A stretch of 64,000 nt of DNA from the NCBI GenBank assembly GCA_951406725.2, contig OX597830.1, positions 56,420,001 through 56,484,000 of the forward strand. Reading direction: 5' to 3'. This document shows positions 1,948-48,318 of this stretch, piece by piece (positions within the stretch are counted from its first letter, which is position 1; each line of letters starts with the position of its first letter). The notes under the pieces were generated by a model. The model saw only the letters and a program-made list of their open reading frames with translations, did no database searches and was not told the DNA's origin. The position numbers and the translations under genes were made by a program. Origin of the DNA: Octopus vulgaris (lineage: Eukaryota).

Positions 1948-2015
<68 letters not shown>

Positions 2016-3377: not shown

Positions 3378-3416
<39 letters not shown>

Positions 3417-5611: not shown

Positions 5612-5739
5612 CTTGATGTCTCCTTCAGCAGAACCTGTCACAAAGAACCTTTCTTCTGGATCCAGGGCCAGACTTTTGATTGGGGATTCATGGGCTTGGA
5701 AGGTGTGTCGCATTAATCTCTGTCTCATATCGAATAAAC
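5612..5739 (-). CDS. DMXL2: DMXL exon (LFDMRQRLMRHTFQAHESPIK...VTGSAEGDIK)
   Basis: tcccag / gtatga; 128 nt; WD40. Confidence 0.95.
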
Positions 5740-22259: not shown

Positions 22260-23240
22260 CTTAATTGCACAGGTGACCATTGTCAACTGGAATGGCTTAA
22301 TTGTACAGGTGACCATTGTCAACTGGAATGGCTTAATTGTACAGGTGACCATTGTCAACTAGAATGGCTTAATTGTACAGGTGACCATCGTCAACTAGAA
22401 TGGCTTAATTGTACAGGTGACCATCGTCAACTAGAATGGCTTAATTGTACAGGTGACCATTGTCAACTAGAATGGCTTAATTGTACAGGTGACCATTGTC
22501 AACTAGAATGGCTTAATTGTACAGGTGACCATTGTCAACTAGAATGGCTTAATTGTACAGGTGACCATATTATTGTCAACTAGAATGGCTTGATTGTACA
22601 GGTGACCATTGTCAACTAGAATGGCTTAATTGTACAGGTGACCATTGTCAACTAGAATGGCTTAATTGTACAGGTGACCATTGTCAACTAGAATGGCTTA
22701 ATTGTACAGGTGACCATTGTCAACTAGAATGGCTTAATTGTACAGGTGACCATTGTCAACTAGAATGACTTAATTGTACAGGTGACCATTGTCAACTAGA
22801 ATGGCTTAATTGTACAGGTGACCATTGTCAACTGGAATGGCTTAATTATACAGGTGACCATTGTCAACTAAAATGGCTTAATTGTACAGGTGACCATTGT
22901 CAACTAGAATGGCTTAATTGTACAGGTGACCATTGTCAACTGGAATGGCTTAATTGTACAGGTGACCATTGTCAACTAGAATGGCTTAATTGTACAGGTG
23001 ACCATTGTCAACTGGAATGGGTTAATTGTACAGGTGACCATTGTCAACTGGAATGGGTTAATTGTACAGGTGACCATTGTCAACCGGAATGGCTTAATTG
23101 TACAGGTGACCATTGTCAACCGGAATGGCTTAATTGTACAGGTGACCATTGTCAACCGGAATGGCTTAATTGTACAGGTGACCATAGTCAACCGGAATGG
23201 CTTAATTGTACAGGTGACCATTGTCACCTGGAATGGCTAA
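22260..23240. repeat. 36-bp minisatellite, about 27 copies
   Basis: Unit gcttaattgtacaggtgaccattgtcaactagaatg. Confidence 0.95.
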
Positions 23241-26500: not shown

Positions 26501-26660
26501 CAGAATATCCACATGCATTTATACACAAACACACAGAGAATTGTGTTATAGACATAACATGGAGAATATAAGAAACCGTACACATATATTCACATGCAAA
26601 CACAAACATAGAACAATGTCTATCTTTTTAAGGATTTCCATATATACATACATACATATA

Positions 26661-26893
26661 TATTTCTTTATTGCCCACAAGGGGCTAAACACAGAGGGGA
26701 CAAACAAGGACAGATGAACAGATTAAGTCGATTACATCGACCCCAGTGCGCAACTGGTACTTAATTTATCGACCCTGAAAGGATGAAAGGTTTAGTCGAC
26801 CTCGGCGGAATTTGAACTCAGAACATAACGGCAGACGAAATACCGCTAAGCATTTCACCTGGCGTGCTAACGTTTCTGTCAGCTTGCAGCCTT
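26661..26893 (-). mobile_element. SINE family A copy
   Basis: Full-length match to 5871-6105. Confidence 0.85.
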
Positions 26894-27527
26894 ATACAGA
26901 CATACATACATATATATATATACACACACACACATACATAACATTGACAATAAAAGAACCATGTGCACACACACACACACACAGAAGGATTACCAACTAT
27001 TCAAATGCTTTCATGTGCCAGGCAATGCTGGAGGTCAAAAAGTCAAAAGACAGAATTAGTAAAAAAATGGAATTGATAAAAAGGTAAAAAAAAAAAAAGA
27101 CAATATCGAAAGTTCTATTTAAGATTTTTAGAAAAAACAGAAACAAAACAACAAAAATATTAAAAACTGACAAAGACAAAACAAAAACAAAAAAGAAACA
27201 ACAACCCAAAAAACAGACAAACAAACAAACAATAACAAAAACAATGACAAGAACCAGAACACTAACAAAAAGTCGTTCACAAAGAAAATGTAATTCTATG
27301 AAACAAAAATTGTCTAACGAAAGAATATTGCAAAAATATTGAAGAATACTACGCAGTGAAATGAGTGAGAAAGGTGTCTTTGATATTTGCAGAAAGATGC
27401 ACTAAGATATTCCAGGTGTGTCACAGGGGGACTGGGGGAGTGGGGCAGGGGATGGTGGTGGTGGTAGTGGTGCTGACTGTTCAAAACAGAAACAAGTAAA
27501 TAAAACTGTGCTATATACACACACTCA

Positions 27528-27989: not shown

Positions 27990-28940
27990 CATGCTTATGC
28001 ATACACACACATATATACACACATAAACACACACACATATGTATACACCAGATAAACTTTAAATGAGCATATGTATACATTTCCATATATACAGGTATAT
28101 AGATGTGTATGTGCACAGGTGTGTAGACATGCAAGTGCTTATGCATACACACATATATACACACATAAACACACACATATATACACACATAAACACACAC
28201 ACATATGTATAGACCAGATAAACTTTAAATGAGCATATGTATACATTTCCATATATACAGGTATATAGATGTGTATGTGCACAGGTGTGTAGACATGCAA
28301 GTGCTTATGCATACACACATATATACACACATAAACACACACATATATACACACATAAACACACACACATATATGTATAGACCAGATAAACTTTAAATGA
28401 GCATATGTATACATTTCCATATATACACAGGTATATAGATGTGTATGTGCACAGGTGTGTAGACATGCAAGTGCTTATGCATGCACACATATATACACAC
28501 ATAAACACACACATATATACACACATAAACACACACACATATGTATACACCAGATAAACTTTAAATGAGCATATGTATACATTTCCATATATACAGGTAT
28601 ATAGATGTGTATGTGCACAGGTGTGAAGACATGCAAGTGCTTATGCATACACACATATATACACACATAAACACACACATATATACACACATAAACACAC
28701 ACACATATATGTATACACCAGATAAACTTTAAATGGGCATATGTATACATTTCCATATATACACAGGTATATAGATGTGTATGTGCACAGGTGTGTAGAC
28801 ATGCAAGTGCTTACGCATACACACACATAAGCACACACACATAAGTATACACCAGATAAACTTTAAATGAGCATATGAATACATTTCCATATATACAGGT
28901 ATATAGATGTGTATGTGCACAGGTGTGCAGACATGCATTC
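27990..28940. repeat. Compound ~167-bp tandem repeat, 6 copies
   Basis: Anchor cagataaactttaaatg recurs near 28049, 28215, 28383, 28551, 28719, 28853. Confidence 0.9.
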
Positions 28941-29261: not shown

Positions 29262-29345
29262 CGACTGTAGCAAGCGTCTACTTCTATCGCGGACAAACTG
29301 ACAGAACTGGGGGGTTCCAAGCCCTGACAGATTAATTCCTTTGAT
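29262..29345 (-). CDS. DMXL2: DMXL probable cassette exon (IKGINLSGLGTPQFCQFVRDRSRRLLQS)
   Basis: ctacag / gtaaga; 84 nt, phase 0-0, open frame; skipping preserves frame. Confidence 0.75.
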
Positions 29346-29694
29346 CTGTAGAGAAATTTACCAATTTTTTTTTTTTATCCAGCCAAGCAGTGGCAACGGC
29401 AGCAAAGAAAGAAAGAAAGAAAGGAGGTAGAAAGAAAGAGAGGGGGGAGAAGAGAAAAAAAAAGAGAGAAAAGACAACCAGATCAGGTCATGATGAACAG
29501 GTCAAATATAGAACATTTAATAAAGGTGGATTTAGCTAAATAAAGGTTTTGATGGAGGGGTTATTTTTGAAGGAAGGGGGCTTTTTCTTTTAAGGATGTG
29601 GAAAACTTCTTGTAACAAAAACAGCACCTTCTTTATTGTTTGAGTAGTTCTTTTTTACTTTTTTTAATAGAGTTTTTCCATTTTTATACATATA

Positions 29695-30088
29695 CTAGTA
29701 GTATAACCCGGCGTTGCTTGGGTTTGTTTTCTTTTCGACCCTTTAGAATTGGAATTTTTGAAAAGTAAAAATTTTGCGTCATGTAGCTTGTTATTCTCTT
29801 TAAGTGAACATTTTTCTGGTTGAAATACACTGAAAAATGGTGACACAGCAGTCAAAAAATCGTAAAAAACAGAGATTTTCATAGAAAAAAAGCACCTTTT
29901 TGATGTAAATAATTTTTGGTCTTAACATGGTCTGATTTGAATTTTTTCTTCTACAGAATGAAGAGCAAACCTTCTTCTATCATACTTTCAATTTTAGTCA
30001 ACTTGCACCGCAGGGTCTTGGAGGAGATAGTGTTAGTTGAAGGCTACCAAACCTACCACACACAGACAACTGCAGCTTTATATATAAA
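29695..30088 (-). mobile_element. Non-autonomous Helitron relic
   Basis: Minus strand ends with GC hairpin CCCAAGCAACGCCGGG followed by CTAG (29695-29698); opposite end lies in a (TA)n run. Confidence 0.65.
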
Positions 30089-31790
30089 TATATATATGTA
30101 CATCCCCTTCACATATCCTCTCTGTAACACACACACGTTTTGTAAGAATGTGTGGGCTCTTGTGGAAAATAAATGAAAGGATTATTATTTCATGCTGGTA
30201 TGGGTTGGACAGTTTGACAGGAGCTGGCCAGGGAGAAGACTACACAAGGCTACTGTGACTGTTTTGGCATGGTTTTTTACAGCTGGATGCCCTTCCTAAC
30301 ACCAACCACCCCACAGAGTGGATTTGTATTTTCATGTGGTTTTTTATTATATATGTATCAAATACATAGGTAATGTTAATTAAAACTTGATGAGAATTAT
30401 AATTAAACCATTCAGGTCTTGGAATATACTTTGTGGTTAGGTGGAAGAGCAGGATTACGTAAACAGAAAAAAACAGTTCTTTGAGAAACACACACATACA
30501 CACCTTCCTTAAATTTCAAATGATTTAACAAGAGTTTCTCCTCAAATTTATACATCTGAGATTTGTGTTCAAACACCATCTTAATACATCAATGTATATT
30601 TATCTTTGGTTTCATCCCAAACAACATCTTAATGTACAAATATACATTTGTCTTTCGTCATGTTTCAAACATTATCTTAATATCCCAATATATACTTATA
30701 TTTTATTTCGTTTTTGGATTTGGTTTGCAAGATTCTTTATATGAGTTCGTGTGTTGAAGCATATTCTGTTGTGTCTGGGGAGAGTCATTTTGTTTTTGTG
30801 CCTTATAATGTAACACACTCACTGGTAAAATTTCTACTTTTTTCTTATTTAAAAAAATTTTTTTTATTTTTATATTTTTACACATATAAGAAAATAAGAA
30901 AAAAGTGGAAATTTTACCGGTGATTGTGTTAAATAAGAAGGCACAAAAAGGACTCTCCCCAGACACAACAGACATTACTTATATTTTGTTATATACCAAG
31001 CACTATCTTAACATACTAATATATACTTCCCATTTTTATGTACCAAACACCATCATAGTATACCAATATACAGTTGTCATTTTTATATATCAAATGGCAT
31101 TTTAGTTTACCAATTTACATTTGCATTTTGCTATATTCCTAATACAAACATCTTAATATACTAATATATATTTCGCTTTTGTTCCAAGCACCATCTAAAC
31201 AAACCAATGAATGGGAAAGTTAGTTATTTTCCAAAATCCGCTCCAATTTAAATTACTATCAAAGTCAATTGAATGAAACATATGGGTCATGTGTTTCCTT
31301 AGACATTATAGAGACTGACTAAAACCTTGAAAAAAAAGAAAAGAAAAAAAACCCTTCTTAAAACCAAATGGAAGTTATTTAGATCTAACAATCCCATCCT
31401 AGTAAGATGTTATCATAGTGGCAGAGTGTACTGTGGAATGAGCATAGAGGGGAAATATTACAGAAAACTATTTCCTGGTTAGTTCCGCTATTTGGATAAA
31501 TATTTCTAAATTCTTCCAACAAGAGTTAGGGCTTCAATGTAATTAAAAGAACCGGAAACTATACACACCACACACATGCATATATACAAACGCATACACA
31601 CACATATATACACACATATACATACACACAGATATCTACACACACGCGTGGCTGCGTGGTAAGAAGTGTGCTTTCCAACTACATGGTTCTGGATTCAGTC
31701 ACACTAGACCGAGTGCCTTCTATTATAGCCTCAGACCGACCAAAATCCTTGTGAGTGGATTTGGAAGATGGAAACTAAAAGAAGCCTGTC

Positions 31791-31822
<32 letters not shown>

Positions 31823-32206
31823 GCATGTTTGTCCCCCACCCCAACCTGCTTGACAACCGGTGTTGATGTGTTTGCATCCCTGTAACTTAGTGATTTGGCA
31901 AAAGTGTCCAATAGAATAAATACTAGGCTTAAAAAATAAGTCCTGGGAGTGGCTCATTCAACTAAAAGATTTTCAAGGCAGTTCCTCAGCTTGGTCACAC
32001 AGTCTAATGACTGAAACAAGTAAAAAGTGAAAAAGGTATATATACATATCATCATCATCATTTAACATCCGCCCTCCATGCTAGCATGATATAATATATA
32101 TGTACTTTATTAATGCAGAACAAGTGAGAAAGGTGTGCTCAATACATGTTGCAGAGGGCAGTTTTTATTTTAAGTTGAGAGTTTGACTTGTAACTTGAGT
32201 TTCATG

Positions 32207-32253
<47 letters not shown>

Positions 32254-33218
32254 CACACACACGAGATAATGGTGTCAATGAGACCCAAAAGTGTCAGGTA
32301 ATGCTGAATAAGTCACTCTCTATTTATATCATATCGAAACTAACTATGACTTAACTTTTCCTCTCACACCACCTCCAATGAAGGGATATTATTATTAATT
32401 AATATTCTAAAAACAGCTGTAAGACCTTCTATCTATAAATGCTCTAATATCTATACAGCTTTGTTTTTTTTTTTATCTCATTACGCAAAAAATTCATATA
32501 TACACACACACACATATATATACACAAACATACTTGTATATAGGTGCAGGCATGAGTGGTGTGGTTCAGAAATAAGTTTCACAACTACGTAGTTTCCGGT
32601 CCAGACCTACTGCACAGCAACAGCTTGGGCAAATGCCTTCTACTACAGCCACAGGCTGAGCACTTCTTTGTCAGTGAATCTGATTGATGGAAAACAAAAG
32701 AATCTCACTGTGTGTGTGTGTGTATATATATTTTTTCTCTCCTTGTTTTTTCTGTGTCCCTTTCTGTAGAAGAGCGTAGGCTCGAAACGTAAAAGACTTT
32801 TTCTATTCCTGAGTGTCATACTAATACATCTGTTTGTTTTGTACACCACCTGTCTTTGTCTTTTGTTTTTTTCGTAAACTCTCCCTGTGTGTATATATAT
32901 ATATATATTTATGTATAAATATAAAACCTGTTACCAGTTCAGATATACTTTAAGAATATCGAACCTGTAAGAAAGCAATTCACCGAATTTTGTCATGGAG
33001 AAAATTTTTTTGCTGTAGATAAATCAGTGTAAACACGTCAAGTCAGTTCAAGGTGCCCCTTACCCAGAGGGATATGGATGCATGCATTTCATTGTAGTTA
33101 TCTCCTGCACAGCATCAGACCCTAGAAGGGGAAATTCCACAAACTGACAAGAGATAGGTCTGTCTTATTATGTGTATGTACATATACATGTGTATGTGTG
33201 TGTGTAAATATATATATA

Positions 33219-33453
33219 CCTATTTCTTTACTACCCACAAGGGGCTAAACACAGAAGGGACAAACAAGGACAGGCAAACGGATTAAGTCGATTATATTGA
33301 CCCCAGTGCGTAACTGGTACTTATTTAATCGGCCCTGAAAGCATGAAAGGCAAAGTCGACCTCGGCGGAATTTGAACTCAGAACATAGCGGCAGACGAAA
33401 TACCGCTAAGCATTTTGCCCGGCGTGCTAACGTTTCTGCCAGCTCGCTGCCTT
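33219..33453 (-). mobile_element. SINE family A copy
   Basis: Full-length match; TSD approx tgtgtaatatatatatacct. Confidence 0.85.
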
Positions 33454-33739
33454 ATGTGTAATATATATATACCTTTTATCTTTTACTTGTTTCAGTCATT
33501 AGACAGTGGCCATGCTGGGGCATTATCTTGAAAAATTTTTAGTTGAATATATCAACCCCATTACTTACTTTGTTTTTGAAGGCTGGTACTTATATATATA
33601 TAGACACACATATACATATTATCTACATTATAAGATTTGTGGGGAGTAGGTAGTCATTGGCTGTTTTCTACCCAAGGAGTTTTTTAAACCAATAGCTTTC
33701 ATGCTAATATTTATAGCTTTATCTATTTTGACCCTACAC

Positions 33740-34010
33740 CAGTGGTTCCCAAACTTATTTAGGCTGTTACGCTTGGCACCCAAGCCACATTCCTAGCGCT
33801 CCCCACCTCACCAATACAAACATAGACCACTTTCTGTATCAATTTCAAAACAACTGTATTTCACTAATAGAACATAACCCATTATTTTGTTGTTTTTACA
33901 TCCATTGCCCCCTTTTGGCCAACCCATTATCATCCCCACTCTTCTTCAGCAACCTCTGAACCTTTCGACAGCACCCAGAGGGACAGTACTGCTCACTATG
34001 GGAACCACTG
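33740..34010. mobile_element. hAT (Charlie-like) MITE
   Basis: TIRs CAGTGGTTCCCA / TGGGAACCACTG; degenerate 8-bp TSD ccctacac / acctaccc. Confidence 0.75.
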
Positions 34011-34248
34011 ACCTACCCTTTATAAATGGTTTATTTCCTACCTCTCCATTTTTTAAAAATGAAAGATGATATAAATAAATGGAGTGGTTGTATACTGTCA
34101 ACTTAATGTGACAGTCCTGTAAGGGAATTACACCAACGCTGTTTAGCCCTAGGAAGCATCGACGCTTCCTGTTGGCCTTGACACATTTCCTGTGTCCTTA
34201 TATATTTACGAAGGGGAGACAAACACCCCCAACAGCTAGGCCTGCATT

Positions 34249-34290
34249 TAGAGACATGCATGTTTCTGGGTCTTGCCCATCATCAGTCTA
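34249..34290 (-). ncRNA. Type I hammerhead ribozyme (intact catalytic core)
   Basis: Minus strand reads UAGA-CUGAUGA-UGGG-CAAGA-CCCA-GAAA-CAUGCAUG-UC-UCUA: all conserved core nucleotides present, helices I/II/III can pair, GUC cleavage triplet. Confidence 0.8.
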
Positions 34291-34846
34291 GAGTAGCAGA
34301 GGCCTGCTAGCTGAAAATATTTGTCTAGACTTCGTAAATATATATATATATATATATTTTTCAGTGAAATTTATTCACTGATCACCAAAATCATTCTCAT
34401 AATACAAACTATAGAATTCTCACTGATAAGGACAAAGCTTCTAAAGTGGATAGAGAAAATCCACTGGATTTCTTTGGTATGATGGTAGAATGTCTGTCAT
34501 GTTCACAGGTGATGTGGGTTCATGCTTCTCTGGCAGCACTTTTCCCTCCCAACCAAAGTGATTTTTAACCCAGCATTCTACATGCTGTTATTTATTGCTT
34601 CATTTATTTAGATTTCAACTGTCAAAATGATTTGTATGTTCTTTTATTCTTTCAGTCATTTGACTGTGGTCATGCTGGAGTACCACCTTTAGTTGAACAA
34701 ATCGACCCCAAGATTTATTCATTGTAAGCTGAGTACTTATTCTATTGGTCTTTTGCCAAACCGCTAAGTTACGGGGACGTAAACACACCTACATCGGTTG
34801 TCAAGCGATGGTAGGAGGACAAACACAGACACAAAAACATATACAT

Positions 34847-34892
<46 letters not shown>

Positions 34893-35362
34893 GATGGGCT
34901 TCTTTCAGTTTCCGTCTACCAAATCCATTTATAAGGCTTTGGTTGGCCCGAGGCTATAGTAGAAGACACTTGCCCAAGATGCCATGCATTGGGACTGAAT
35001 CTGGAACCATGTGGTTGGTAAGCAAGCTACTTACCACACAGCCACTCCTTCACTTATATATACATATACGTACATTATCATCATCATCATCATCGTCGTT
35101 TAACGTCCGTTCTCCATGCTAGCATGGGTTGGACGGTTCGACCGGGGTTCTGGGAAGCCAGAAGGCTGCACCAGGCTCCAGTCTAAATTTGGCAATGTTT
35201 CTACAGCTGGATGCCCTTCCTAACGCCAACCACTCCGTGAGTGTAGTGGGTGCTTTTTACGTGCCACCTGCACAGGTGCCAGGCGGGGCTGGCAACGGCC
35301 ACGGTCAGATTGGTGTATTTTATGTGCCACCGGCACGGAAGCCAGTCGAGCGGTGCTGGCAT

Positions 35363-35820
35363 CGGCCACGAGTCGGATAGTGCTTTTACGTACCACCAGA
35401 CCAGGGATCCTGGCTGGTTCAATTCGATTTCGATTTCGCTTGCCCCAACATGTCTTCACAAGCAAAGGGGGTTGGCAAGGGTGCCTGTCGTACGGTCGCA
35501 TTGGAGTATTTTACGTGCCACGGCCACGAGTCGGATAGTGCTTTTTACGTACCATCAGACCAGGGATCCTGGCTGGTTCAATTCGATTTCGATTTCGCTT
35601 GCCCCAACATGTCTTCACAAGCAAAGGGGGTTGGCATGGGTGCCTGTCGTACGGTCGCATTGGAGTATTTTACGTGCCACGGCCACGAGTCGGATAGTGC
35701 TTTTTACGTACCACCAGGCCAGGGATCCTGGCTGGTTCAATTCGGTTTCGATTTCGATTTCGCTTGCCCCAACATGTCTTCGCAAGCATGGGGGGTTGGC
35801 ATGGGTGTCTGTCGTCGGAT
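35363..35820. repeat. ~158-bp tandem triplication within the RTE 3' UTR
   Basis: cggccacgagtcggatagtgc starts at about 35363, 35521, 35680. Confidence 0.9.
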
Positions 35821-35898
35821 GAGGTTCTATATCGACTTCGCTTGCCTCAACCGGTCTTTGTGTCCAAGGGAGGAAAGGCATTCATAAGTGGGCTGGGC

Positions 35899-37316
35899 TC
35901 ACTTGTCCTGCCTGGTCTTCTCACGTACAGAATATTTCCAAAGGTCTCGGTCTCTGGTCATTTCCTCAGTGAGGCCTAAAGTTCGAAGGTCGTGCTTCAC
36001 CACCTCGTCCCAGGTTTTCCTGGGTCTACCTCTTCCACGGGTTCCCTCAACTGCTAGGGATTGGCACTTTCTCACACACCTATCTTCATCCATTCTCGCC
36101 ACATGACCATACCAGCGCAATCGTCTCTCTTGCACACCACAACTGATGCTTCTTAGGTACAACATTTCTCTCAAGGTGCTAACGCTCTGTCGAGTATGTA
36201 CACTGACATTACACATCCATCGGAGCATACTGGCTTCATTCCTCACGAGCTTACGCATGTCCTCAGCAGTCACGGCCCATGTTTCGCTGCCATGTAGCAT
36301 GGCTGTTCGTACACACGCATCATACAGTCTGCCTTTTACTCTGAGCGAGAGGCCTTTAGTCACCAGCAGAGGTAAGAGCTCCCTAAACTTTGCCCAGGCT
36401 ATTCTTATTCTAGCAGTTACACTTTCAGCGCACCCACCCCCACTACTGACTTGGTCACCTAGATAACGGAAGCTATCAACTACTTCTAGTTTTTCCCCCT
36501 GGAAAGTGACGGAAGTTGTTTTCTGCAGATTTTCGGAGGTTAATGCTCCCGAGCATCTGCCACATACAAAAACTATCTTCCCAGTTAGCCTACCTTTGAC
36601 ATTGCTGCACCTCTTATGTGTCCATAGCTTACACTGGGTACATCTTATAGAGTTTCTACCTACACCTTTTCTACAGATCGAGCAGGGCCATCTTCCTGAA
36701 GATATTTGTGGATTGTCTACCTTTCTACTTATTAGTACTTTGGTTTTAGCTAGGTTGACTCTAAGGCCCCTTGATTCTAAACCCTCCTTCCACACCTGGA
36801 ACTTCTCCTCCAGTTCTGATAGTGACTCAGCAATAAGAGCAAGGTCGTCAGCGTAGAGGAGCTCCCAGGGACAGCCTGTCTTGAATTCCTCCGTAATTGC
36901 CTGGAGTACTATGATAAATAGGAGGGGGCTGAGTACTGAACCCTGGTGGACCCCAACCTCTACTTTGAATTCTTCTGTGTACATGTTGCCAACCCTAACC
37001 TTACTTACGGCATCTCTGTACATGGCTTGCACAGTCCTCACCAGCCATTCATCTATCCCTAGTTTCCTCATTGACCACCAGATAAGGGATCGGGGACCCT
37101 ATCAAACTTTCTCCATGTCAACGAAAGCCAGGTACAGGGGCTTATCTTTGGCTAGGTATTTCTCCTGCAGCTGCCTTACCAGGAATATAGCATCAGTGGT
37201 ACTTTTCCCTGGCACGAACCCAAACTGCATCTCATCTAAACTAACTCTCTCTAATTAGTTGGGCTATGACCCTCTCCGTAACCTTCATTACTTGATCCAA
37301 CAGCTTGATACCTCTG

Positions 37317-37320
<4 letters not shown>
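35899..37320 (-). pseudogene. RTE ORF remnant: reverse transcriptase with embedded PHD-like Cys/His finger
   Basis: Open for 390 aa; small deletions near 37095-37107 create stops (EKV**GP instead of EKAFDRVP); endonuclease half missing. Confidence 0.88.
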
Positions 37321-37368
<48 letters not shown>

Positions 37369-37486
37369 AAATACAAACTGGGACAAGAAAGCAAAACATT
37401 TTAACACAAAAAACAAGGATGGGTCATTCGAAGCCTTCAATCTTCAGTCAAGAACCGGATCATCCTCGCAATTTCGGCTGATTAAT

Positions 37487-37517
<31 letters not shown>

Positions 37518-37519
<2 letters not shown>

Positions 37520-37920
37520 ACAGCTACGCTACATGGTAGTGAGGAGACATAGGCTGTGAGTACTAAGGATATGCAAAGACCTGAAAGAAACGAAGCCTGT
37601 GTATTTCGCTGGATGGGTAATGTCAGTGTGCATATATGACAGTGTAAGTGATTTGGGATAAAAACTGGGTATATTTAGCATCAGGTGTAGTGTGCAAGAG
37701 AGAAGATGGGCACTGGTATGGCCATGTAATGCCTATGAATGAAGACAGCTGCATCAAGAGGTGCCGATCTCTAATTGTAGAGGGAACGTGTGGAAGGGGT
37801 AGACTCAGGAAGACATGGGACAAAGTGGTGAGAAAGGATCTACAGATGCTGAGACTCACAAAAGGGATGACAGGGGACTGAGACCCCAGGCAGATTGCTG
37901 TGCTTGAAAAGATACATCAG
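37518..37920 (+). mobile_element. Degenerate RTE C-terminal fragment (another at about 6925-7105)
   Basis: WYGHVMPMNEDSCIKRCRSLIVEGTCGRGRLRKTWDKVVRKDL parallels the end of ORF 35899..37071. Confidence 0.75.
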
Positions 37921-39457
37921 TATAAGTAAAAATGTGGTTGCCCTTCCTTACAACCCTCTCCAGCTGAGCATCCCTAATCTTGCGGTCTTGTAAGTGCTGG
38001 TGCCACATAAAATGCACCTGTACTGGTGCTGCTTAAAGTACCCAGTAAACTCCTGTAAAGTGGTTGGTGCTAAGAAGGCCATGCCAAAACAGACCCAGAA
38101 CCTGAACAACCCTTCAGCTGGTCAGCTTCTGTCAAACCATTCAACCCAAGCAAACATGGAAAATGGATGTGTGATGATGATGATGATCTCAACAAATGTC
38201 ACTGTTTTCAATTACAAATGCTGATACTTGTAGCTGTGGCCCAAATTGTAAATTTGTAAGCATTCAGACACATGCAGACACATGCACGCACACATAGAGA
38301 TATCAACTGAAGACGATAGTATTACATAATGATTATCTTATGTAACTACTTAAAATGTGTGTATTAAATGAATTCAACACATCAACTTCTAGTTTTGCAA
38401 TTATTCTCAATCACATACACACAATGATGGTCTCTATGCCGAATTCCCTCACAAAGCATTTGTTGGTCTGGAGTTATGGTAAAATACAGTTGCATAAAGT
38501 GCTGCCTAGTGGAACTGAAAACACCTGCCCCTTGTAATACACATATGCATGTACAAATATTTTTACATATATCTATATGTGTGTTTGTTTTTAAATATGT
38601 ATCTCTCTCTCTCTCTCTCTCTCTCTGTGCATGTTTGTACATATGCATCTTAATTAACACATACACACTCGTGTGGATGCCAGTCCATTGCAAGATTAAT
38701 TCCCAGTTGCTGTTGAGTATCTTGTTTAACATCACAACATGCAAGTAAAGGGTACACACAAATACATACATACATGTGAACACACACATATACACAAAGG
38801 GCTTCTTTCAGTTTCCGTCAGCTAAATCTGCTCATAAGGCATTGTTTTGCTTGGACATAAAATAGAAAATATTTGCCCAGGGTACCACATAGTGGAACTG
38901 AACCTTTGACAATATGGTCATTGAAGCAAGCTTCTTAAATACACACTCATACCTATGCCTATATAAGACCCTATCACAGCATAACTTAGCAAGGTTGTTG
39001 GTAGATGGAAAAGACACCCCACAGTACTGCCGTCCCTGAGAGAAATGCTATAGAAAAGAAAGCAAAGGTTTGTCAAGTGATTTACTGTCACTTTTTGATT
39101 TTGTTTTAATCACTAACAAGGTAATTATTACAACAGGTGATATAAATTCAGGGGGGAAAAAAATAATAGTAATAAAAAAAGGTAGTAGACATTTTAAATA
39201 ATCAATACAGATGATAAGAAATAGCTTTGTGTCAGGATCAAAGTGAGAAAGAGATCAAATGACCAGTTAAGGTGCTGAAGTCAATAGATAAACATATGCC
39301 TCGCTATGAACAAAATTATAAGTTAAAAGTGCGTAGTTTTATCTTTCTGCCCATCAATAACTATATCTCTCACCCCTCTCTGTCACCCACTCTATCTCTC
39401 TATCTATATATATATCTATATATATACATACATATATGTATCTACACACACACACAC

Positions 39458-39492
<35 letters not shown>

Positions 39493-40189
39493 ATGTATAC
39501 ATATATATGTATGTATGTGTATATGTAAAGATATGGCAATCAAAATTATACATGTGTCTCTCTCTCTCTCTCTCTCTCTCTTGCGCTGGCAGTATGTTTA
39601 CCAGACAAGTTGTGGGTGTAACTAAACAGAGTAAAAACCGATTATTGAGAGGGAAACAGCTGGATGAGATTTTCTGAAATAATAAAATAAAGGATTTGCT
39701 ATTAACCACTTAAAAGAAATTGGATGAATAACAATAGTTCTTTCCACTGAAGGCATAAGACCTGAAATTTGGGGGTGGAGGGGTTTAGTCGATTACATTG
39801 AGCCCAGCTGGTACTTATTTTATTGATCCCGAAAGGATGAAAAGCAATGTCATCTTGATGGAACTCAGAACACAAAGTTGGACGAAATGCCGCTAAGCAT
39901 TTCGACCAGTGTGCTAACGATTTTGCCAGCTTGCCGCCTTTAAAAAAAAAAATTATTTTTTTCTAAAAGCACAAGGCCTAAAATTTTGGGGGTGGGGTTA
40001 GTCGATTATATTAATCCTAGTTCGTAACTGGTACTTATTTCACTGACCTCAAAAGGATGAAAGGGAAAGTTGACTTTAGTGGAATTTGAACTCAGAATGT
40101 AAAGACAGAAGAAATGTCCCTAAGCATTTTACCTGGCATACTAACGATTCTACCAGCTTGCCACCTTAATAATAATAGTAATAATAATA

Positions 40190-40220
<31 letters not shown>

Positions 40221-40859
40221 TAGTAATAGTAATAATAATAGTAATAATAATAGTAATAATAATAATAATAATGATAATAATAATAATGGTTTCAAATTCT
40301 GGCACAAAAGTAGTATTTTTTTTAAGGAGGAGTGGACAAGTCTATTACATTGACCCCAGTACTTGGGGTTTATTTTACCAACCCTGAAAAGATGCTGCTG
40401 AACATTTTGTCCCACATGCTAATGATTCTACCAGCCTACCACCTTAATAATAATAATAATGATAATGATGGACTGTCCTGTCAAAGACAATGTATGAATG
40501 TCCAGCTTTTTGCCGAACAACCTGTGCAACAGATGATTCTTTTATAATGATCAAATGTATGTACAGTACGGTAGTAGCTCACTTCCTCCATGAAATTAAA
40601 TCAATGTTGCCGATCAGGTGCATTGCATGCCAGGTGTCAGAGTGATTGTAGAGCAATGCGAGACGAAGTGCTTTGCTCAAGAACATAACACACCACCAAG
40701 TCTAGGAACTGAAACCACAGTCTCACAATTGTGAGTCCAAAACCCTGAGCACTGGGCCATGCAATTCTTACATTATAATGATAACAATTCTTCCTAATAT
40801 AGGCACGAGGCCTGAAATTTTGGGTGAGCAGGGATAGTCGATTTTATCAACCCCAGAAA

Positions 40860-41252
40860 TAAAATCACTGATGTCGATGCAATAGACTAACTCCTGTCTT
40901 CCCTTGAAATTTTCTGGCCTTGTACCACGATTCGATGCCATTCTTTATTGAGCTAGCAGAATTGTTAGCATATAAGACATCTTGTTTTGCCATGTTTCTT
41001 CCAGCTCTTCTGATTCTGCATTCAAATACTGCTGAGTTCAACTCAACCTTGCATCTTTCCAAGACTGATAACATAAGTACCAGTCAAATACTGGGGTTGA
41101 TATGTTATCAGAAGAGCAGGAAGAAACATGACAAAAACAAGATGTCTGATATATGCTAACAATTCTGCTATCTTGATAACGAATGGCATTGGATCGTGGT
41201 ACAAGGCCAGAAAATTTCAAGGGAAGACAGGACATTGACATCAGTGATTTTA
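40860..41252. repeat. Local inverted duplication (~140-bp arms)
   Basis: aaaatcactgatgtc...tcctgtcttcccttgaaattttctggccttgtaccacgat is inverted at 41192-41252. Confidence 0.85.
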
Positions 41253-41737
41253 TTTTATCAACCCCAGAAAAATGAAAGGCACTCGACCTTGGTGGAATTT
41301 GGACTCAAAATAAATGCTGCTTAGCATTTTGTTTGATGTGCTGAGTTGAGCATTGATTGATAAGGGGAGATTTGGTGGCTCACTATAGCAGAGCAGGTTG
41401 ATGTAAATCCGTAGACAGTAGAGGTATTTTCTATTAAAAAGCAGAAATTGACGGTGAGCTGCAGAACAGAATCGGACACATGGAAGTATACATACACTAT
41501 CTCTGAGTAGTATGTGTGTGCATTAATGCATTTATTCTCAGTGTGTTTGATTTCTCTCTTTCCCTCACTTTACCCAGTTTATTGATAACAATGTAAACCG
41601 GTCTAACTTATGAAGAGTAAAAAACTCAAAAGCGACAAGGTTTCAAGTTGATCATCATTGGAAATGTTTCGAATATGAATTGTATTTTAGAATTTGAATT
41701 GTATTTTTGTAATTTTCTTTTGTTATTCCATAGTATA

Positions 41738-41972
41738 TCTATTTTTTTACTACCCACAAAGGGCTAAACACAGAGGGGATAAACAAGGACAGACAAATGG
41801 ATTAAGTTGATTGTATCGACCCCAGTGCATAATTGGTACTTAATTTATCGACCCCGAAAGGATGAAAGGCAAAGTTGACCTCGGCAGAATTTGAACTCAG
41901 AACATAACGGCAGACAAAATATGGCTACGCATTTCGCCCGGCGTGCTAACATTTCTGCCAGCTTGCTGCCTT
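41738..41972 (-). mobile_element. SINE family A copy
   Basis: Full-length match; TSD ttattccatagtatatc. Confidence 0.85.
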
Positions 41973-42810
41973 ATTATTCCATAGTATATCACCTGTAACT
42001 GCACCATCTGATTATGCACAACAGGTTGCATAAGAAACACTAAAGCATTACACACACACACACACACACATTGTTAACATTATAAGAATCATTTCGTGTT
42101 CTCTCAATGTTTATAAATTCTTATGATGTCAACAAGATACAATTCTTGCTGGTATGAACCAAGTTTCTAAAATGGATAGGAAACTTCAAAGGATTGCTTT
42201 GGTCCACTGGTAGAACATCTGCCATGTATGTTTACAGATGTGGGTTCACATCCCACAAACAGCCTTCAACTTTCTATCCAAATGTGTTTTAGCCCAATAT
42301 TTACACACTTTTATTTACAGCTTCATCTGTTTGATTTTCAATGTTCCAAGCAAGAAAATGGAATTCAAGAGATACTTTATTAATCAGTTTGATCATTTCA
42401 ACCCATTGTGCATCGGTCCCTTTCTCTACTGACATGAAGGAATTCCTGAAGTTAACCCAATGGCATATATATGCATACTGTTGATGACATCAGGTAGCCC
42501 AATACAGTGAATGGGCTTTAAACAGCATATCACAAGGTATACTCTCTTTTACTCTTTTACTTGTTTCAGTCATTTGACTGTGGCCATGCTGGAGCACTGC
42601 CTTTAGTCGAGCAAATCGACCCCAGGATTTATTTTTTGTAAGTCTATCGGTCTCTTTTGCCGGACCGCTAAGTTACGGGGACATAAACACACCAACATCG
42701 GTTGTCAAGCGATGTTGGGGGGGAGGGGACAAACACAGACAGAGAAACATATACACACACATACGACGGGCTTCTTACAGTTTCCGTCTACACACACACA
42801 CACATACACA

Positions 42811-43030
42811 CAGGGTTGGCTAAAAGTCACCCGACGTAAATCAAAATTTCCCAAGTACTTAATATTCAATTTCATTTATTCATTCCAATAATTGAATGCT
42901 GTGAATTAAAATCACCATTTGTTTTCAACATTTGTCTATCTATTAACGAAGTCTAATATAAAATAATTTTTTGTTTTAATCTTGGAATTAAATGGTTTTG
43001 ATTTACTGTCAGGTGACTTTTGGCCAACTC
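42811..43030. mobile_element. Tc1/mariner-type MITE
   Basis: CAGGGTTGGCTAAAAGTCACCCGACGTAAATCAAAA is inverted at TTTTGATTTACTGTCAGGTGACTTTTGGCCAACTCT. Confidence 0.7.
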
Positions 43031-43041
43031 TCCCCTCTTTC

Positions 43042-43073
<32 letters not shown>

Positions 43074-43806
43074 CGTATGTATGTACACACATATACATAT
43101 ATGAATGAGTGGATAAAAGAAAGAGAAAGGCACTCAACACATTTAGTAGGAATTACATGTATTATTTAAAACAGTTTGATCTGGCTCCATGAGATTTAAA
43201 GTCTTGCAGGCTTCTAAGAGAAACCCAGCTTGTTCAGGCTCAGATTACCAAAATCAGATTCAGTAATCTAAACGAGCTGAATTTCTGTTGGAAGCCTGTA
43301 AAACTTCAAGTTGCCTGGAGCCGGATCAAACTGTTTTAAATAATAATGATATATATATATATATATACACATACACATACATACACATAAAAATTACGAT
43401 ATTATGCAGACATCAGTCAGGGTGTGTGTGTGTATACACTTTGTAATCCAACACCTTGTGACCTATTTGCTATTCTGAGTAAACAGGTGCATGTAGATAA
43501 TAATCATCATCATCATCATAGAAATCAATAGATAATTTTTCTCATATAAATCAATATATTACAGATGGTGCACAGTTAGGGTGGGTGAAGGAGAAGGAGG
43601 GAGAGAGGACAGACAACAAAGATATACAAATATTAGAATCTCGACTTTGTAGGTTGAGGATATTGTATTGTGGTTATAATATATACTGTTGGGACCATAG
43701 TATAAAGAGTTGTAGCTAGTATACAATATATTGCTCAACTGGCTAGAAAGCTAAATCTCCCTAAAACCCTATCCGGAGCCGAGTATAAAGCCTGAAAAAT
43801 CAGAAG

Positions 43807-43849
<43 letters not shown>

Positions 43850-44475
43850 CTCGGCAATAAGAAAATGGAGGGCATCAAGAGGTGGTATTCATCAACTTTT
43901 AGACATTATTTTATGTCTATATATTTTTTAAAAAAACAATTATAACAATATATATCTCTTGATTCCTCCCATTTTCTTATTGCCGTATAAATTAAGGGTG
44001 AAAAAAACCTTCTACCCTCACCCATTTATTACATTCTGTAGTGTAATTGCCATGCAATGAAAAAACACTTGCGTATTCTAGCAGCAGTGTATTGGATAGA
44101 TATTATCCCTTAGTTGGTTGGATTTACAACTTCTAACTCTCTTGGAATATATATATATATATGTAATTTTTTTGACTAATGGGTCAGTGAGTGTGTTTAG
44201 TAAAGCACATTCACTTCACAGTTTGGGCTACCTGGTGACATCCATGGTTGGTGTATATTTCTGCTGGATCTACTTCAGGAATTCTGCAGTATTAGTTTAA
44301 ATAGTAATAGTTGATGAAAGAAATAGAAGATAGATTTGGCACTAGTCTTTCATCAGTGCAATGATCATTTTGACTCATCCTGCAAACTGTCCATTATGGG
44401 CAGGATTTTGTGCAAAAGCCTACTGATAATGGACAGTTGCAATGATCATTGTACTAATAAAGACTAGTATTAAAC

Positions 44476-44716
44476 CTATTTCTTTATTACCCACAAGGGG
44501 CTAAACACAGAGAGGACAAACAAGGACAGACAAAAGACAAACGGATTAAGTTGATTATATCTGCCCCAGTGCGTAACTGGTACTTATTTAATCGACCCCG
44601 AAAGGATGAAAGGCAAAGTCGACCTTGGCGGAATTTGAACTCAGAACGTAGCGGCAGATGAAATACTACTAAGCATTTCACCCGGTGTGCTAACGCTTCC
44701 GCCAGCCCGCCGCGTT
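44476..44716 (-). mobile_element. SINE family A copy inserted into a palindromic element
   Basis: 17-bp TSD actagtattaaacctat at 44463-44479 and 44718-44734. Confidence 0.88.
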
Positions 44717-45083
44717 CACTAGTATTAAACCTATCTTCTGTTTCCTTCATCAATTATTACTATGTGTGTGTGTGTGTGTGTGTATGTGCAGGAGTGGTTG
44801 TATGGTAAGAAGTTTTCTTCTTCCCAACCACATGGTTCCAGTTTAAGGCCCACTGCATGACAACTTGAGCAAGTGTCTTCCATTATAGTCTAGGGCCAAC
44901 CTAAGCCTTGTGGGTGGATTTGGTAGACAGAAGCTAAAAGAAGCCTGATGGGTACACACACACACATAAGTGTATCTTTGTGTTTGTCCCCTACCACAGT
45001 TTGACAAGCTGCATTGGCTTATGTTCTTTTGACTTACTTGATTTGGCATAAGAAACCAATAGAATAAGTACTAGACTTAAGTA

Positions 45084-45148
<65 letters not shown>

Positions 45149-46031
45149 TGATGATAAGGAGAACAGAGATTTATATATCTAGTTTTATTCTGCAGTCAGT
45201 CACGCCTTTCCATTTCTGCACCTACATCCATAAAACTGGATATATAAATCTCTGCTCACATTATCAATAATTTACTATTTCTTCTCTGCTGACAACATGC
45301 AGTCTCTATAGAGACATGTGGATTTACTGCTGTGGAGATCTATTGAGGACAGTAAAATAAACTAACAGGAGTTTTTCTACACTCACAGAGGTTAGCTGGC
45401 ATTATTAACCTGCTAGGATTGTATATCTCTACCAACCTAAGCTGGAAATTTACCTATATATATATATATCAAATAAATACTCAACAGATGAGATCTAGAG
45501 ATTCTTGGTATAGAAAACGCTTAATAGCGCTCAGATGATTCGATTTAGACTCTGATGTCTTTACAAGGGACCAATTCTGCAGGGTAAAGAGTGGCTATAT
45601 GAGGAATCAAGGTGAGCAGATATGGAAGCAATTATGCGGATAAACTCTTGTTAAATTTAATATATCATCATTGTTTAATGTCCGCTTTCCATGCTAGCAT
45701 GAGTTGGACGAATGACTGAGGGCTGGCGAGCCAGATGGCTGCACCAGGCTCCAATCTTGATCTTGCAGAGTTTCTACAGCTGGATGCTCTTCCTAACGCC
45801 AACCACTCCAAGAGTGTAGTGGGTGCTTTTATGTGCCAGTCAGGCGGTACTGGCAACGACCTCGCTCAAATCTTTTATACATTCCACTGGCACAGGTGCC
45901 AGTAAGGCGATGCTGGTAACGATCATGCTCGAATGGTGTCTTTTACGTGCCACCGGCATGGAGGCCTGATAGCCACTCTGGCAATGATCATGCTCAGATG
46001 GTGCTCTTGTTGTGCTCTCTCTCTCTCTCTG

Positions 46032-46063
<32 letters not shown>

Positions 46064-47711
46064 TATAAACATCTCAGCTTTCATGTTGGCATGGATTGCA
46101 TAGATTCATAGGTCGACTGGTCATGAAACTACATTGTACTCTAAAATCTACTCTGGCATGGGTTCTAAGGCTGGATGCTGTTCTTAAACATCAACCACTG
46201 TACAATGCATATGGGATGCATATTCCAGACACCAGTACTAGTGCGGTCACCAGGTAGCTCGCAAGACTAAGTTCCTCTTCAACTGAAGTGGGGCTATAGT
46301 AGAGAGGGAGGCAGCTTTATGCTGTAGGATAAGGGGCTAATGTATGAGAGAAGGGACCAGAAGAGGTTTCATGTTGTTGAGGAAATATACTGATATCTTG
46401 TATCATAAAAGAATGAGTGAGAGTATTAAAGGTGGAGCTTGAAAGATAGAAAAGATAGTGGGGACAAGCTGTCAGGGTTGGCTCTGGAGACAGAAGAAGG
46501 AGGATGGGTAGAGGCTGCAAGAGATTATGAAGAGTGTGAAGATTGGTTATAGGTAGGGTAAAGGTGTGAATTTACTGAATGATGAACAAAGGTTGAGGGA
46601 GAGGATGATATGACTCAGATGGAAGGTAAGGGAAAGTAGATAATAATTAGATATGGGCTAGGGAAAAGAGATGAAGAAGAGATGAATAGCAAAGGGGATG
46701 ATCAATGATACATAGGAGTTATAGGGAAGGTCATGGAATGGAAAACAGGTGCTGATTGGTAGTATAGAAGTGGGTGAAGAGCAGAAGAAGAGTGGTGATA
46801 CAGTAAACAGGAGAAGGGTGAGAGAAAGGGAGATGATGTGTGGATGGGTAAGCTGTAAGAGTGTGATTGGAGAGAGAGAGAGAGAGAGAGTGTGTGGTAA
46901 AAGTTAGAGATATACAGTGATAGAAACAAGTTGACAGGGGGGGTGATTCAATGAAGAGGAGGGGATAATTTGTTGGTGTCAATGTAAAGTGTGCGTGAAG
47001 AGGGACAATGTCAAGGATGTAGGATGGATGTTAAGTGAAGTGGTTCTGGGTAGTGAGAAAGGTAACTGGTATCAGAGAAAAGATGTTAAAATATGCTGTT
47101 CTGCCTCATTTAATTACAGTGGCAGAAGACTACAGTTGGAGGTGGATGAGGGGCCCAGCTGTGTATATTCATATTATATGCTTCCATAACCTCTGTTTCA
47201 CCAAGATGGACATGTCTTCTCAAGTACTGCATATTGCCAGGAGTTCAGGTTCCTTGTCATCTCCTACATAAGATTCAAAGTCCTGAGAGCATCTTTCACT
47301 AATTTTTCAATTCAATTTTTATTGGCTCAAAAAGCAAAAGCAAGGCCATGTAGGGGGACAGGGAGTTATGTACAGGGAGGGTGGTCATACAAAGGGTTCA
47401 GGTCATTTCTGGTCAAGAGAGACTTTGAACTGAGCGGTCGTCAGCATCTTCACTATCTCATCCGGTCACATGTCTTCCTCTTCCACAGGTTCCATAGAAT
47501 AATTATAATAAACAACAATGTTTCTCATTTAGGCACAAGGCTAGTAAATTTCAAGAGAGGGGTCTTAGTTAATAGTATTGAACTTGAAAGGATGAAAGGT
47601 AAAGCAGACCTCAATGATATTTGAATTCAGAACACAAAGAGACCGAACAATCACTGCGAAACATTTTATTCAAAGCTCTAACGATTCTGCCAACTTGCAA
47701 TAAAAATACAT

Positions 47712-47755
<44 letters not shown>

Positions 47756-48318
47756 TACTAATATTTTATATTTATAGTTGAGAGGTTAGCATAGAGAGGG
47801 GACGTTCAGTTATATTAATACTTTTGATATCAGCCAACTGGAGACTACCCCGGGTTCTACAATGCTCATCCAACCATGACCACCTCAGGTTCTATGATGC
47901 TAATCCCCCGGATGCCCCATCTAAATCTATCAAACATCTTATTTTAGAATGTCCATATTGAAATAAAAACAGTCTGTTACGGTATTATGTAGGAACCTTT
48001 TTGTTATGTTTAGTTCCATTTAATGGCTCAGTAAGGATTTATTTACAAAATTAATTACAAAAACAAACAACGTTAATGTATTATTGCAATTAGGGTTAAA
48101 ATATATTAATTAAAAGTGTTAAAATATATTAATCTCACAAAAATGAAAAATTCTCAGACACGACACCAATAATGAATATATGGATGTCAGATAATTTTTA
48201 AGAAGAATTTAAAACATTTAAAAAACAAAATGTTTTATGAAACAAACAACAAATAAAAGTCATCTAAGAGTTAGTGTAATGTTGTTGAAACAAAAAAGGA
48301 AACGGTGATTTTACTTAC

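What the first reader, a model, noticed from the sequence alone, without database searches (positions are those of the whole stretch)
34199..34345. Intact hammerhead ribozyme at the tip of a rod-like ~145-bp element, in sense orientation inside a DMXL intron
Seen: the minus strand reads ...cugcuacucUAGA CUGAUGA UGGG caaga CCCA GAAA CAUGCAUG UC^UCUA aaugcag..., a complete type I hammerhead core (CUGAUGA 34286-34280, GAAA 34266-34263, GUC 34255-34253; predicted cut between 34253 and 34252). Helix III is the perfect palindrome ACAUGCAUGU. Helix I extends through an internal loop into cugc/gcag, aggccu/aggccu, cagcuag/cuagcug, agacaaa/uuugucu and terminal atatttacgaag/cttcgtaaatat. The whole element therefore folds as one long hairpin, and it abuts a (TA)n tract. 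Established: palindromic helix III and dimeric cleavage characterise hammerheads of Penelope-like elements and metazoan retrozymes (e.g. newt satellite 2). Inference: this is a member of a possibly undescribed cephalopod retrozyme or PLE-derived family. Being on the pre-mRNA strand in the 19-kb intron before the cassette exon, it could cleave the DMXL transcript co-transcriptionally. The U10.1-A11.1 pair is non-canonical and may reduce activity.
Basis: partly seen in the sequence, partly recalled or inferred. Interest (0 to 1): 0.88.

Follow-up and report, generated by a model that had tools for sequence, protein, structure and literature searches.

The report
Truncated retrozyme copy in DMXL intron
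The hammerhead motif is real, but it lies inside one shortened, mutated copy of a widely scattered ~355-base non-coding repeat, likely a 'retrozyme' pasted in by Penelope-type transposon enzymes, so it probably sits in the DMXL intron by chance rather than as a regulator.

Summary
Confirmed: a type I hammerhead on the minus strand, a 147-nt rod (z -7.4), and sense orientation in a ~19-kb DMXL intron. Corrected: the rod is not a stand-alone element beside a TA tract. It is the middle of a 354-366-nt circularly permuted unit; the window holds one 5'-truncated copy (~34080-34393). At least 146 insertions in four subfamilies were seen, plus two distant sister families. Helix I covaries across them, and one family carries the U3-A8 core swap, which points to selection for cleavage. 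Insertions bear the Penelope (PLE) signature: 170 of 196 3' ends fall at two sites 55 nt apart, and 33 of 35 two-armed insertions with both ends at these sites have exactly one tailed end. Copies run through the cut site, so the template was likely circular or uncut. This copy has a helix I mutation rare in the family, no partner hammerhead in the window, and a predicted core-blocking fold; regulation of DMXL is unsupported. Cleavage and circles are untested. Verdict: new member of a known kind (animal non-LTR retrozyme). This scan has reported cephalopod retrozymes with PLE-type ends before, in this genome and others.

The parts
34080..34393 (-). Whole insertion: one 5'-truncated copy (~310 nt, ends +/-3) of the ~355-nt unit, ending at the family's 'short' 3' site, no 55-nt tail, no target-site duplication seen
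   Evidence: L001 1381-1695; profile match 34393-34087, the only copy in the window
34199..34345 (-). Rod-like arm of the unit with the hammerhead at its tip
   Evidence: z -7.43; covarying pairs along the rod
34287..34292 (-). Helix I, 5' strand (6 nt), preceded by a 3-nt UAC bulge kept in 140 of 154 copies
34280..34286 (-). Catalytic core C3-A9 (CUGAUGA)
34267..34279 (-). Helix II: variable 10.1/11.1 position, three G-C pairs, 5-nt loop
34253..34266 (-). G12-A14, palindromic helix III (3 pairs + tetraloop) and C17; predicted cut between 34253 and 34252
34247..34252 (-). Helix I, 3' strand, with a G-to-A change at 34248 that breaks one pair in this copy
   Evidence: (nearly all laid contigs show the other letter)
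34338..34357 (.). TA tract: internal, length-variable part of the unit, not the insertion target
34080..34198 (-). 3' part of the unit: small hairpins of the branched domain, ending at the first of the two fixed 3' ends (likely reverse-transcription start)
29346..48318 (-). Host DMXL intron (18,973 nt); predicted cut lies 4.9 kb upstream of the 3' splice site
29262..29345 (-). 84-nt phase-0 DMXL exon, candidate cassette exon (matched by spider and tick DMXL, not by the snail or vertebrate sequences tried)

Best explanation
The hammerhead lies in a single 5'-truncated copy of a dispersed 354-366-nt non-coding repeat, which is likely a non-LTR retrozyme copied into the DMXL intron by the enzymes of a Penelope-like element (PLE) and now decaying. 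Family mechanism: (1, inferred) tandem copies are transcribed; (2, inferred from covariation) hammerheads cut out unit-length RNAs; (3, inferred from known retrozymes) these are ligated to circles, in which the core is predicted to be blocked by an alternative pairing; (4, inferred from insertion ends, which are shown) a PLE protein nicks TA/AT-rich DNA and starts reverse transcription at two internal sites 55 nt apart, reading through the cut site and stopping or inverting at variable places. For this copy: it would cut slowly at best as a monomer and likely has no selected effect on DMXL.
For: Family: 40 of 40 scored candidates 95-100% identical over the rod; 45 exact copies of the 34-nt core vs 0 for the reversed control; 146 distinct insertions in the loci examined. 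Unit: natural copies repeat with period 354-366; a tandem trimer and a dimer exist; no frame of 200 codons belonging to the unit in 20 ten-kb loci. Catalytic selection: core intact in 136 of 154 copies; helix I 95.8% paired with double changes at two pairs, helix II at one; sister family F has a wholly different 6-bp helix I around a canonical core (20 of 24 motifs), sister family E has U3...A8 for C3...G8 in 36 of 38 motifs, a swap reported in PLE hammerheads (PMC4209133). PLE footprint: 170 of 196 3' ends at two sites; 50 of 146 insertions two-armed, and of the 35 with both ends at these sites 33 are short+tail, 1 tail+tail, 1 short+short; flanks TA/AT-rich. This matches the one-sided tail of PLE insertions and the two internal start sites shown in vitro (PMC11167929). 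A mobiliser is on hand: 16 of 150 scored GIY-YIG matches lie in 781-codon RT-endonuclease frames, young, TA-flanked, tailed, with a minimal U3-A8 hammerhead-like motif in the pLTR. Template not the cut linear monomer: 5' ends within 3 nt of the cut in 2 of 210 arms, 0 of 16 arms newly found by a post-cut query; 60 of 210 arms exceed 370 nt. This copy decays: six substitutions against the majority of close copies plus one polymorphic site and a longer TA tract; active fold 8.2 kcal/mol above the ensemble vs 3.7 for its nearest relatives, rank 67 of 79.
Against: No cleavage, circle or transcript was observed. No DNA similarity between the unit and the pLTRs of 39 PLE loci (blastn, nhmmer), so the mobilising family is not identified and the pLTR origin proposed by Li et al. 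is not shown here. Arrays are short: 2 of 210 arms exceed two units, unlike the long arrays of coral or axolotl. Covariation counts are few independent events: the double changes map to subfamily branches, and 'pairs with a change on both sides' does not beat the shuffles (373 of 500). Rfam hammerhead models gave no match. Loci were chosen by similarity to hammerhead-bearing or long queries, top 40 per search, which biases the end statistics, and segmental duplicates were not collapsed. Folding energies ignore tertiary contacts and magnesium, so the blocked fold may be overstated. The core itself departs from the optimum (10.1/11.1 never G-C; U4C in about a third of copies).
Confidence: 0.82

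Rival explanations
1. The unit is the pseudo-LTR of an autonomous PLE not yet sampled, and the copies are 5'-truncated PLE insertions rather than a retrozyme.
For: Same tail and inversion signature as PLEs; PLE pLTRs carry type I hammerheads; most PLE copies are truncated to one terminal repeat.
Against: Upstream of the unit lies the unit again, not an ORF: period 354-366, trimers and partial tandems. No ORF tied to copies; PLE protein matches fall in 11 of the family loci at unrelated positions. No similarity to 39 PLE loci. The hammerhead has canonical 6-bp helix I and loop elements, unlike minimal PLE motifs.
Confidence: 0.08
2. This copy has been co-opted: slow co-transcriptional cleavage 4.9 kb upstream of the cassette exon tunes DMXL level or exon inclusion, like the RECK hammerhead or the CPEB3 ribozyme.
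For: Sense orientation in the intron before an 84-nt candidate cassette exon; core nucleotides intact; intronic ribozymes with conserved or measured roles exist (PMC6155905 passages; PMC10919898 abstract start).
Against: Young copy (96-97% identical to dispersed copies) with scattered substitutions, one of them in helix I; predicted less active than its relatives; no second hammerhead in 64 kb; with at least 146 insertions some must fall in introns in sense. Co-opted amniote hammerheads are defined by cross-species conservation, which was not shown here.
Confidence: 0.05
3. The family is a hairpin DNA element (MITE- or satellite-like) and the hammerhead match is incidental or long dead.
For: The 147-nt rod looks like terminal inverted repeats next to TA; lowest-energy fold is not the hammerhead; no Rfam match.
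Against: The rod is internal; ends are one fixed and one variable, with no terminal repeats or target duplication. Helix I is rebuilt with different sequence in three families and the C3-G8 pair is swapped as a pair.
Confidence: 0.03

Closest known systems
Animal non-LTR retrozymes (Cervera and de la Pena 2020, PMC7229834; parts 2-4 of 6 read, supplement unreadable), nearest in size the 350-390-bp Mytilus repeats; nearest in ribozyme the axolotl HHR_Amex2 (helix III capped by a tetraloop, U.U at the base of helix II)
   Same: Non-coding unit within 150-450 bp, GC under 50% (0.41-0.45), type I hammerhead once per unit, tandem and solo copies, highly self-paired predicted circle (z -5.5 to -9.3), coexistence with PLEs.
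   Different: Mostly solo, truncated and two-armed insertions, arrays of at most three in A-D; the core is predicted to be blocked by self-pairing in 83 of 111 intact copies, whereas that paper predicts most animal circles (some mussel ones excepted) leave the hammerhead free; circles not shown here.
Penelope-like elements: Poseidon PAc of Anolis (Frangieh et al. 2024, PMC11167929, parts 1-2 of 4 read); insertion structure in Craig et al. 2021 (10.1101/2021.04.23.441226, passages); PLE hammerheads (PMC4209133, parts 1-2 of 4)
   Same: Two fixed 3' ends with a tail between, downstream of the hammerhead; inverted second arm with the tail on one end only; AT-rich targets; copies not ending at the ribozyme cut.
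   Different: No ORF; tail 55 nt rather than 30-40; full-size rather than minimal hammerhead; no sequence match to the local PLE pLTRs tested.
Vertebrate retrozymes as non-autonomous PLE derivatives (Li, Clavereau, Pollet 2026, bioRxiv 10.64898/2026.07.22.740005, parts 1-3 of 5 read)
   Same: Monomers dispersed, partly intronic; PLE partnership proposed.
   Different: Their link rests on co-occurrence and pLTR homology; here it rests on insertion-end geometry and pLTR homology was not found. Only 1 of their 9 tested dimers cleaved, a caution for this family.
Conserved intronic hammerheads of amniotes (RECK, C10orf118; PMC3088659 and PMC6155905, passages)
   Same: Type I hammerhead, sense strand, in an intron.
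   Different: Those are conserved across mammals or amniotes; this is a young, mutated member of a high-copy family.

Membership tests
Type I hammerhead ribozyme | Core CUGANGA, GAAA and UH at a three-helix junction, helix I open | tested here: met
   core intact in 136 of 154 copies
Type I hammerhead ribozyme | Helices supported by compensatory change | tested here: met
   helix I and II double changes between subfamilies and families; few independent events; helix III nearly invariant in A-D
Type I hammerhead ribozyme | R10.1-Y11.1 (usually G-C) pair at the base of helix II | tested here: not met
   U-A 56, U.U 48, C.A 32, A-U 16, other 2 of 154; natural U.U variants are reported
Type I hammerhead ribozyme | Match to an Rfam hammerhead model | tested here: not met
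   no hammerhead family at E up to 10 for this copy or L002, L064, L096, L165
Type I hammerhead ribozyme | Site-specific self-cleavage | not testable with these tools
   bench assay needed
Animal non-LTR retrozyme | Non-coding unit of 150-450 bp, GC below 50%, one type I hammerhead per unit | tested here: met
Animal non-LTR retrozyme | Tandem copies with two or more hammerheads (family level) | tested here: met
   L081 trimer, L160 dimer, family E arrays; this copy itself is a solo monomer
Animal non-LTR retrozyme | No terminal-repeat-plus-internal-body (LTR) layout | tested here: met
   unit repeats head to tail; PBS and PPT were not searched separately
Animal non-LTR retrozyme | Expressed as unit-length linear and circular RNA | tested here: inconclusive
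   only contigs of runs guessed to be RNA; cannot show ends, strand or circles
PLE-mobilised insertion | Two fixed 3' ends with tail; inverted arm with tail on one end | tested here: met
   170 of 196 ends; 33 of 35
PLE-mobilised insertion | AT-rich or microsatellite target | tested here: met
   68 short-end and 46 tail-end flanks, TA/AT-rich; no genome background was computed
Autonomous PLE | RT plus GIY-YIG ORF flanked by this sequence as pLTR | tested here: not met
Co-opted intronic hammerhead (RECK type) | Orthologous insertion conserved across species | tested here: inconclusive
   contigs of three DNA-like runs neither spanned nor showed a listed joint across the site
Dimer-only (newt-type) hammerhead | Helix III too short for a monomer, rescued by a palindromic dimer | tested here: inconclusive
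   palindrome present but three pairs plus tetraloop; double vs two single folds differ by -0.9, +2.3, -0.5 kcal/mol in three natural pairs; family E does have a minimal helix III

The most novel reading that the evidence does not exclude
This superfamily is an animal retrozyme with a viroid-style lock: selection keeps an alternative pairing that hides the catalytic core (U4-A replaced by C4-G in 36 of 124 rows, at the cost of a core nucleotide), the PLE protein unlocks it and copies the circle from two internal start sites, and sense-strand intronic copies, this DMXL one included, form a latent, PLE-switchable layer of pre-mRNA cleavage.
Probability: 0.12. Interest if true: 0.75.

Novelty: new member of a known kind. 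Interest (0 to 1): 0.4.

Why it matters
The single intronic copy matters little. The family does a little more: the papers read propose that PLEs mobilise animal retrozymes but show it only by co-occurrence or pLTR homology, whereas here the insertion ends carry the PLE tail signature and name two testable start sites, with an intact young PLE in the same genome. Three related families give a natural series of hammerhead variants (U3-A8 swap, U4C, four states at 10.1/11.1) and a predicted self-blocking fold that is unusual for animal retrozymes. No cephalopod retrozyme turned up in four literature searches; a giant squid paper lists 235 Hammerhead_1 matches without analysis (passages) and a 2026 octopus repeat annotation has no occurrence of 'ribozyme' or 'hammerhead' in its main text. 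Supplements of these papers and of PMC7229834 were not seen and may bear on this.

Tried and rejected
Rfam scans: no hammerhead match; hits were microsatellite noise. Loose core pattern: not above chance. MITE reading: rejected, the rod is internal. Search for a parent PLE: blastn and nhmmer of the unit against 39 GIY-YIG loci found only unrelated neighbouring retrozyme insertions; only 39 loci of 6,136 first-look candidates were examined. The pair of cores 4 kb apart on C20 is a local duplication, not pLTR-ORF-pLTR. Opposite-strand hammerhead: two CUGANGA-like words on the antisense strand of three monomers, no second ribozyme evident by eye. Dimer energetics: no consistent preference. Sequencing runs: no RNA holder on record; contigs of guessed-RNA runs cover the unit with the same uneven profile as DNA-like runs, so no statement on expression or circles; the empty site could not be seen. 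PDB search for DMXL exons gave only generic WD40 matches. A fuzzy-regex script timed out; a tree script failed once and was rerun. A recalled paper on the U4C viroid variant was not held; the point is taken from PMC3088659 instead. Literature on exon tethering across cleaved introns was only seen as a search listing and is not used. Orientation bias of intronic copies could not be tested without gene annotation. A direct pattern count of unit-junction copies was left undone, so the number of tandem junctions genome-wide is open.

Full report
1. Observation. The 147 nt fold as one rod at -62.1 kcal/mol, z -7.43. A loose pattern is not above chance, but a descriptor requiring all three helices finds this one site in the window and none in 200 shuffles. 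Rfam hammerhead models match neither this copy nor four relatives. The host gene is DMXL on the minus strand; splice signals place the element in an 18,973-nt intron, 4.9 kb before an 84-nt phase-0 exon.

2. It is part of a larger repeat. The rod retrieves 40 of 40 scored candidates at 95-100% identity; the 34-nt core occurs 45 times exactly, its reversed control never. Flanks of these copies are shared well beyond the rod, and what lies 5' of it is the same sequence that lies 3' of it: the unit is circularly permuted with a period of 354-366 nt. The TA tract is inside the unit. A tandem trimer (L081) and a dimer with an inverted arm (L160) exist; no coding frame belongs to the unit. Searches seeded from divergent copies gave four subfamilies, A (the window's) to D; natural monomers of B, C and D are 76-88% identical. 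146 distinct insertions were counted among the family loci held at that point (segmental duplicates not collapsed). First-look candidate numbers of 1,047-3,484 are not copy numbers. A profile of the unit found two distant sister families, E (young, about 97% identical copies, tandem arrays) and F (older, about 85%). The window holds one copy, about 34080-34393, truncated at its 5' end.

3. The hammerhead looks selected at family level. The core is intact in 136 of 154 copies, and 111 also have all six helix I pairs. On 124 distinct rows helix I is 95.8% paired with double changes at two pairs (31 and 33 rows) and helix II at one (27 rows); slid controls fall to 20-49% paired. These are few events: they map to subfamily branches, and the number of pairs with double changes does not beat the shuffles (373 of 500). 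Stronger is the comparison across families: F has a different helix I around a canonical core (20 of 24 motifs), and E has U3...A8 in place of C3...G8 in 36 of 38 motifs with a minimal palindromic helix III, the swap reported for PLE hammerheads of Schistosoma (PMC4209133). Departures from the optimum are family-wide: position 10.1/11.1 is U-A, U.U, C.A or A-U, and U4 is C in about a third of copies; both kinds of variant are reported as natural and weaker or tolerated.

4. A competing fold hides the core. In the lowest-energy fold CUGAUG pairs with the helix III strand. That helix is 97.3% paired across 124 rows, and U4-A is replaced by C4-G in 36 of them; this is one origin on the tree, with U.G neighbours, and both changed sites are CpG, so it is suggestive only. 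G5 is predicted paired in 83 of 111 intact copies, median cost of the active fold 5.1 kcal/mol. Cervera and de la Pena predict most animal retrozyme circles leave the hammerhead free, unlike plant retrozymes and viroids. Nearest-neighbour energies omit tertiary contacts and magnesium, so this is a prediction. Natural monomers fold as compact circles, z -5.5 to -9.3 against 40 shuffles each. Double-hammerhead folds were no better than two single ones in three natural pairs.

5. Insertion ends point to Penelope-type copying. In hammerhead sense, 5' ends vary and 3' ends are fixed: 170 of 196 fall at two sites 55 nt apart. 50 of 146 insertions have two back-to-back arms; of the 35 with both outer ends at these sites, 33 have one short and one tailed end (about 2e-8 under a coin-toss model, my arithmetic); the other 15 have at least one end elsewhere. 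Flanks are TA- or AT-rich. A tail on one end of inverted insertions is the described PLE structure, and for the anole PLE the tail was shown to lie between two internal reverse-transcription starts, with AT-rich nicking and no need for ribozyme cleavage. Copies run through the cut site: 5' ends lie within 3 nt of it in 2 of 210 arms and in 0 of 16 arms newly found with a post-cut query, and 60 of 210 arms are longer than 370 nt, 2 longer than 720. The template was therefore likely a circle or an uncut multimer; these data do not separate the two, and the sample is biased to hammerhead-bearing copies. The genome holds a young intact PLE: 16 of 150 scored GIY-YIG matches in 781-codon RT-endonuclease frames, ending in TA tracts with its own tail and a minimal U3-A8 hammerhead-like motif. 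No DNA similarity links its pLTR, or 39 PLE loci in all, to the unit, so the partner is a candidate only.

6. This copy. It differs from the majority of close copies by six substitutions, one polymorphic site and a longer TA tract. One change, at 34248, breaks a helix I pair; the active fold then costs 8.2 kcal/mol against 3.7 in its nearest relatives, rank 67 of 79. There is no second hammerhead in the window for a cis dimer. With well over a hundred insertions, sense-strand intronic copies are expected by chance (inference; Xenopus retrozymes are 42-44% intronic). Conserved intronic hammerheads exist in amniotes, but their mark is cross-species conservation, which could not be shown or excluded here. 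Public runs offered only contigs of guessed RNA and say nothing on expression, ends or circles.

7. Comparison and novelty. It works like, and on the features testable here belongs to, the animal non-LTR retrozymes (PMC7229834, parts 2-4 of 6 read); circular RNA and cleavage remain untested, and in a 2026 survey only 1 of 9 predicted dimers cleaved. It is not an autonomous PLE. PLE mobilisation is proposed in both papers; the end geometry here adds direct genomic support. Searches for a cephalopod retrozyme in print found none (passages; two of three supplements of PMC4209133 searched; supplement of PMC7229834 unreadable). My reading was recorded; one search then showed that this scan has reported cephalopod retrozymes with PLE-type ends in this genome and others, which is agreement among AI notes, not independent support.

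8. Verdict. Observation partly confirmed; family reading supported; DMXL regulation unsupported. New member of a known kind; interest 0.40.

Noticed in passing
L142:1-290 and L227-L256 (family E): Young sister retrozyme family, about 361-nt period, tandem arrays, same short/tail ends about 57 nt apart; family-wide U3-A8 core and minimal palindromic helix III.
   Followed up: partly
L150:740-1050 (-) and L257-L286 (family F): Older sister family, canonical core, different helix I, C.A or U-A at 10.1/11.1.
   Followed up: partly
L144:2245-4587 and pLTR 5217-5672: Young intact PLE with 781-codon RT plus C-terminal GIY-YIG frame, an upstream frame of 333-479 codons in several copies, TA-tract targets, a tail of about 35 nt and a U3-A8 minimal hammerhead-like motif near the pLTR end.
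   Followed up: partly
L153, L154, L128, L162: Other PLE loci with their own hammerhead-like motifs, some with C at position 4.
   Followed up: no
window 29262-29345 (-): 84-nt DMXL exon matched by spider and tick DMXL but not by snail or vertebrate sequences tried; likely alternative exon in the WD40 region.
   Followed up: partly
window 35902-37423 (-): Fragment of a LINE-type reverse transcriptase with a PHD-like finger in the same intron, 1.5 kb from the element.
   Followed up: partly
window 61342-62318 (-): Broken frames that look by eye like a Tc1/mariner transposase (label recalled, not tested).
   Followed up: no
window 22260-23238, 7448-8013, 28003-28837, 35363-35815: Minisatellites of 36, 35, 166 and 159 bp.
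   Followed up: no
window, e.g. 33216-33469, 26656-26909, 41735-41988: Abundant ~250-bp dispersed repeat, SINE-like, at least 8 copies in the window.
   Followed up: no
window 34393: The 5' breakpoint of this copy falls within 3 nt of the family's tail-end site, so the copy is nearly one unit minus the tail; a few other copies do the same but there is no clear pile-up.
   Followed up: partly
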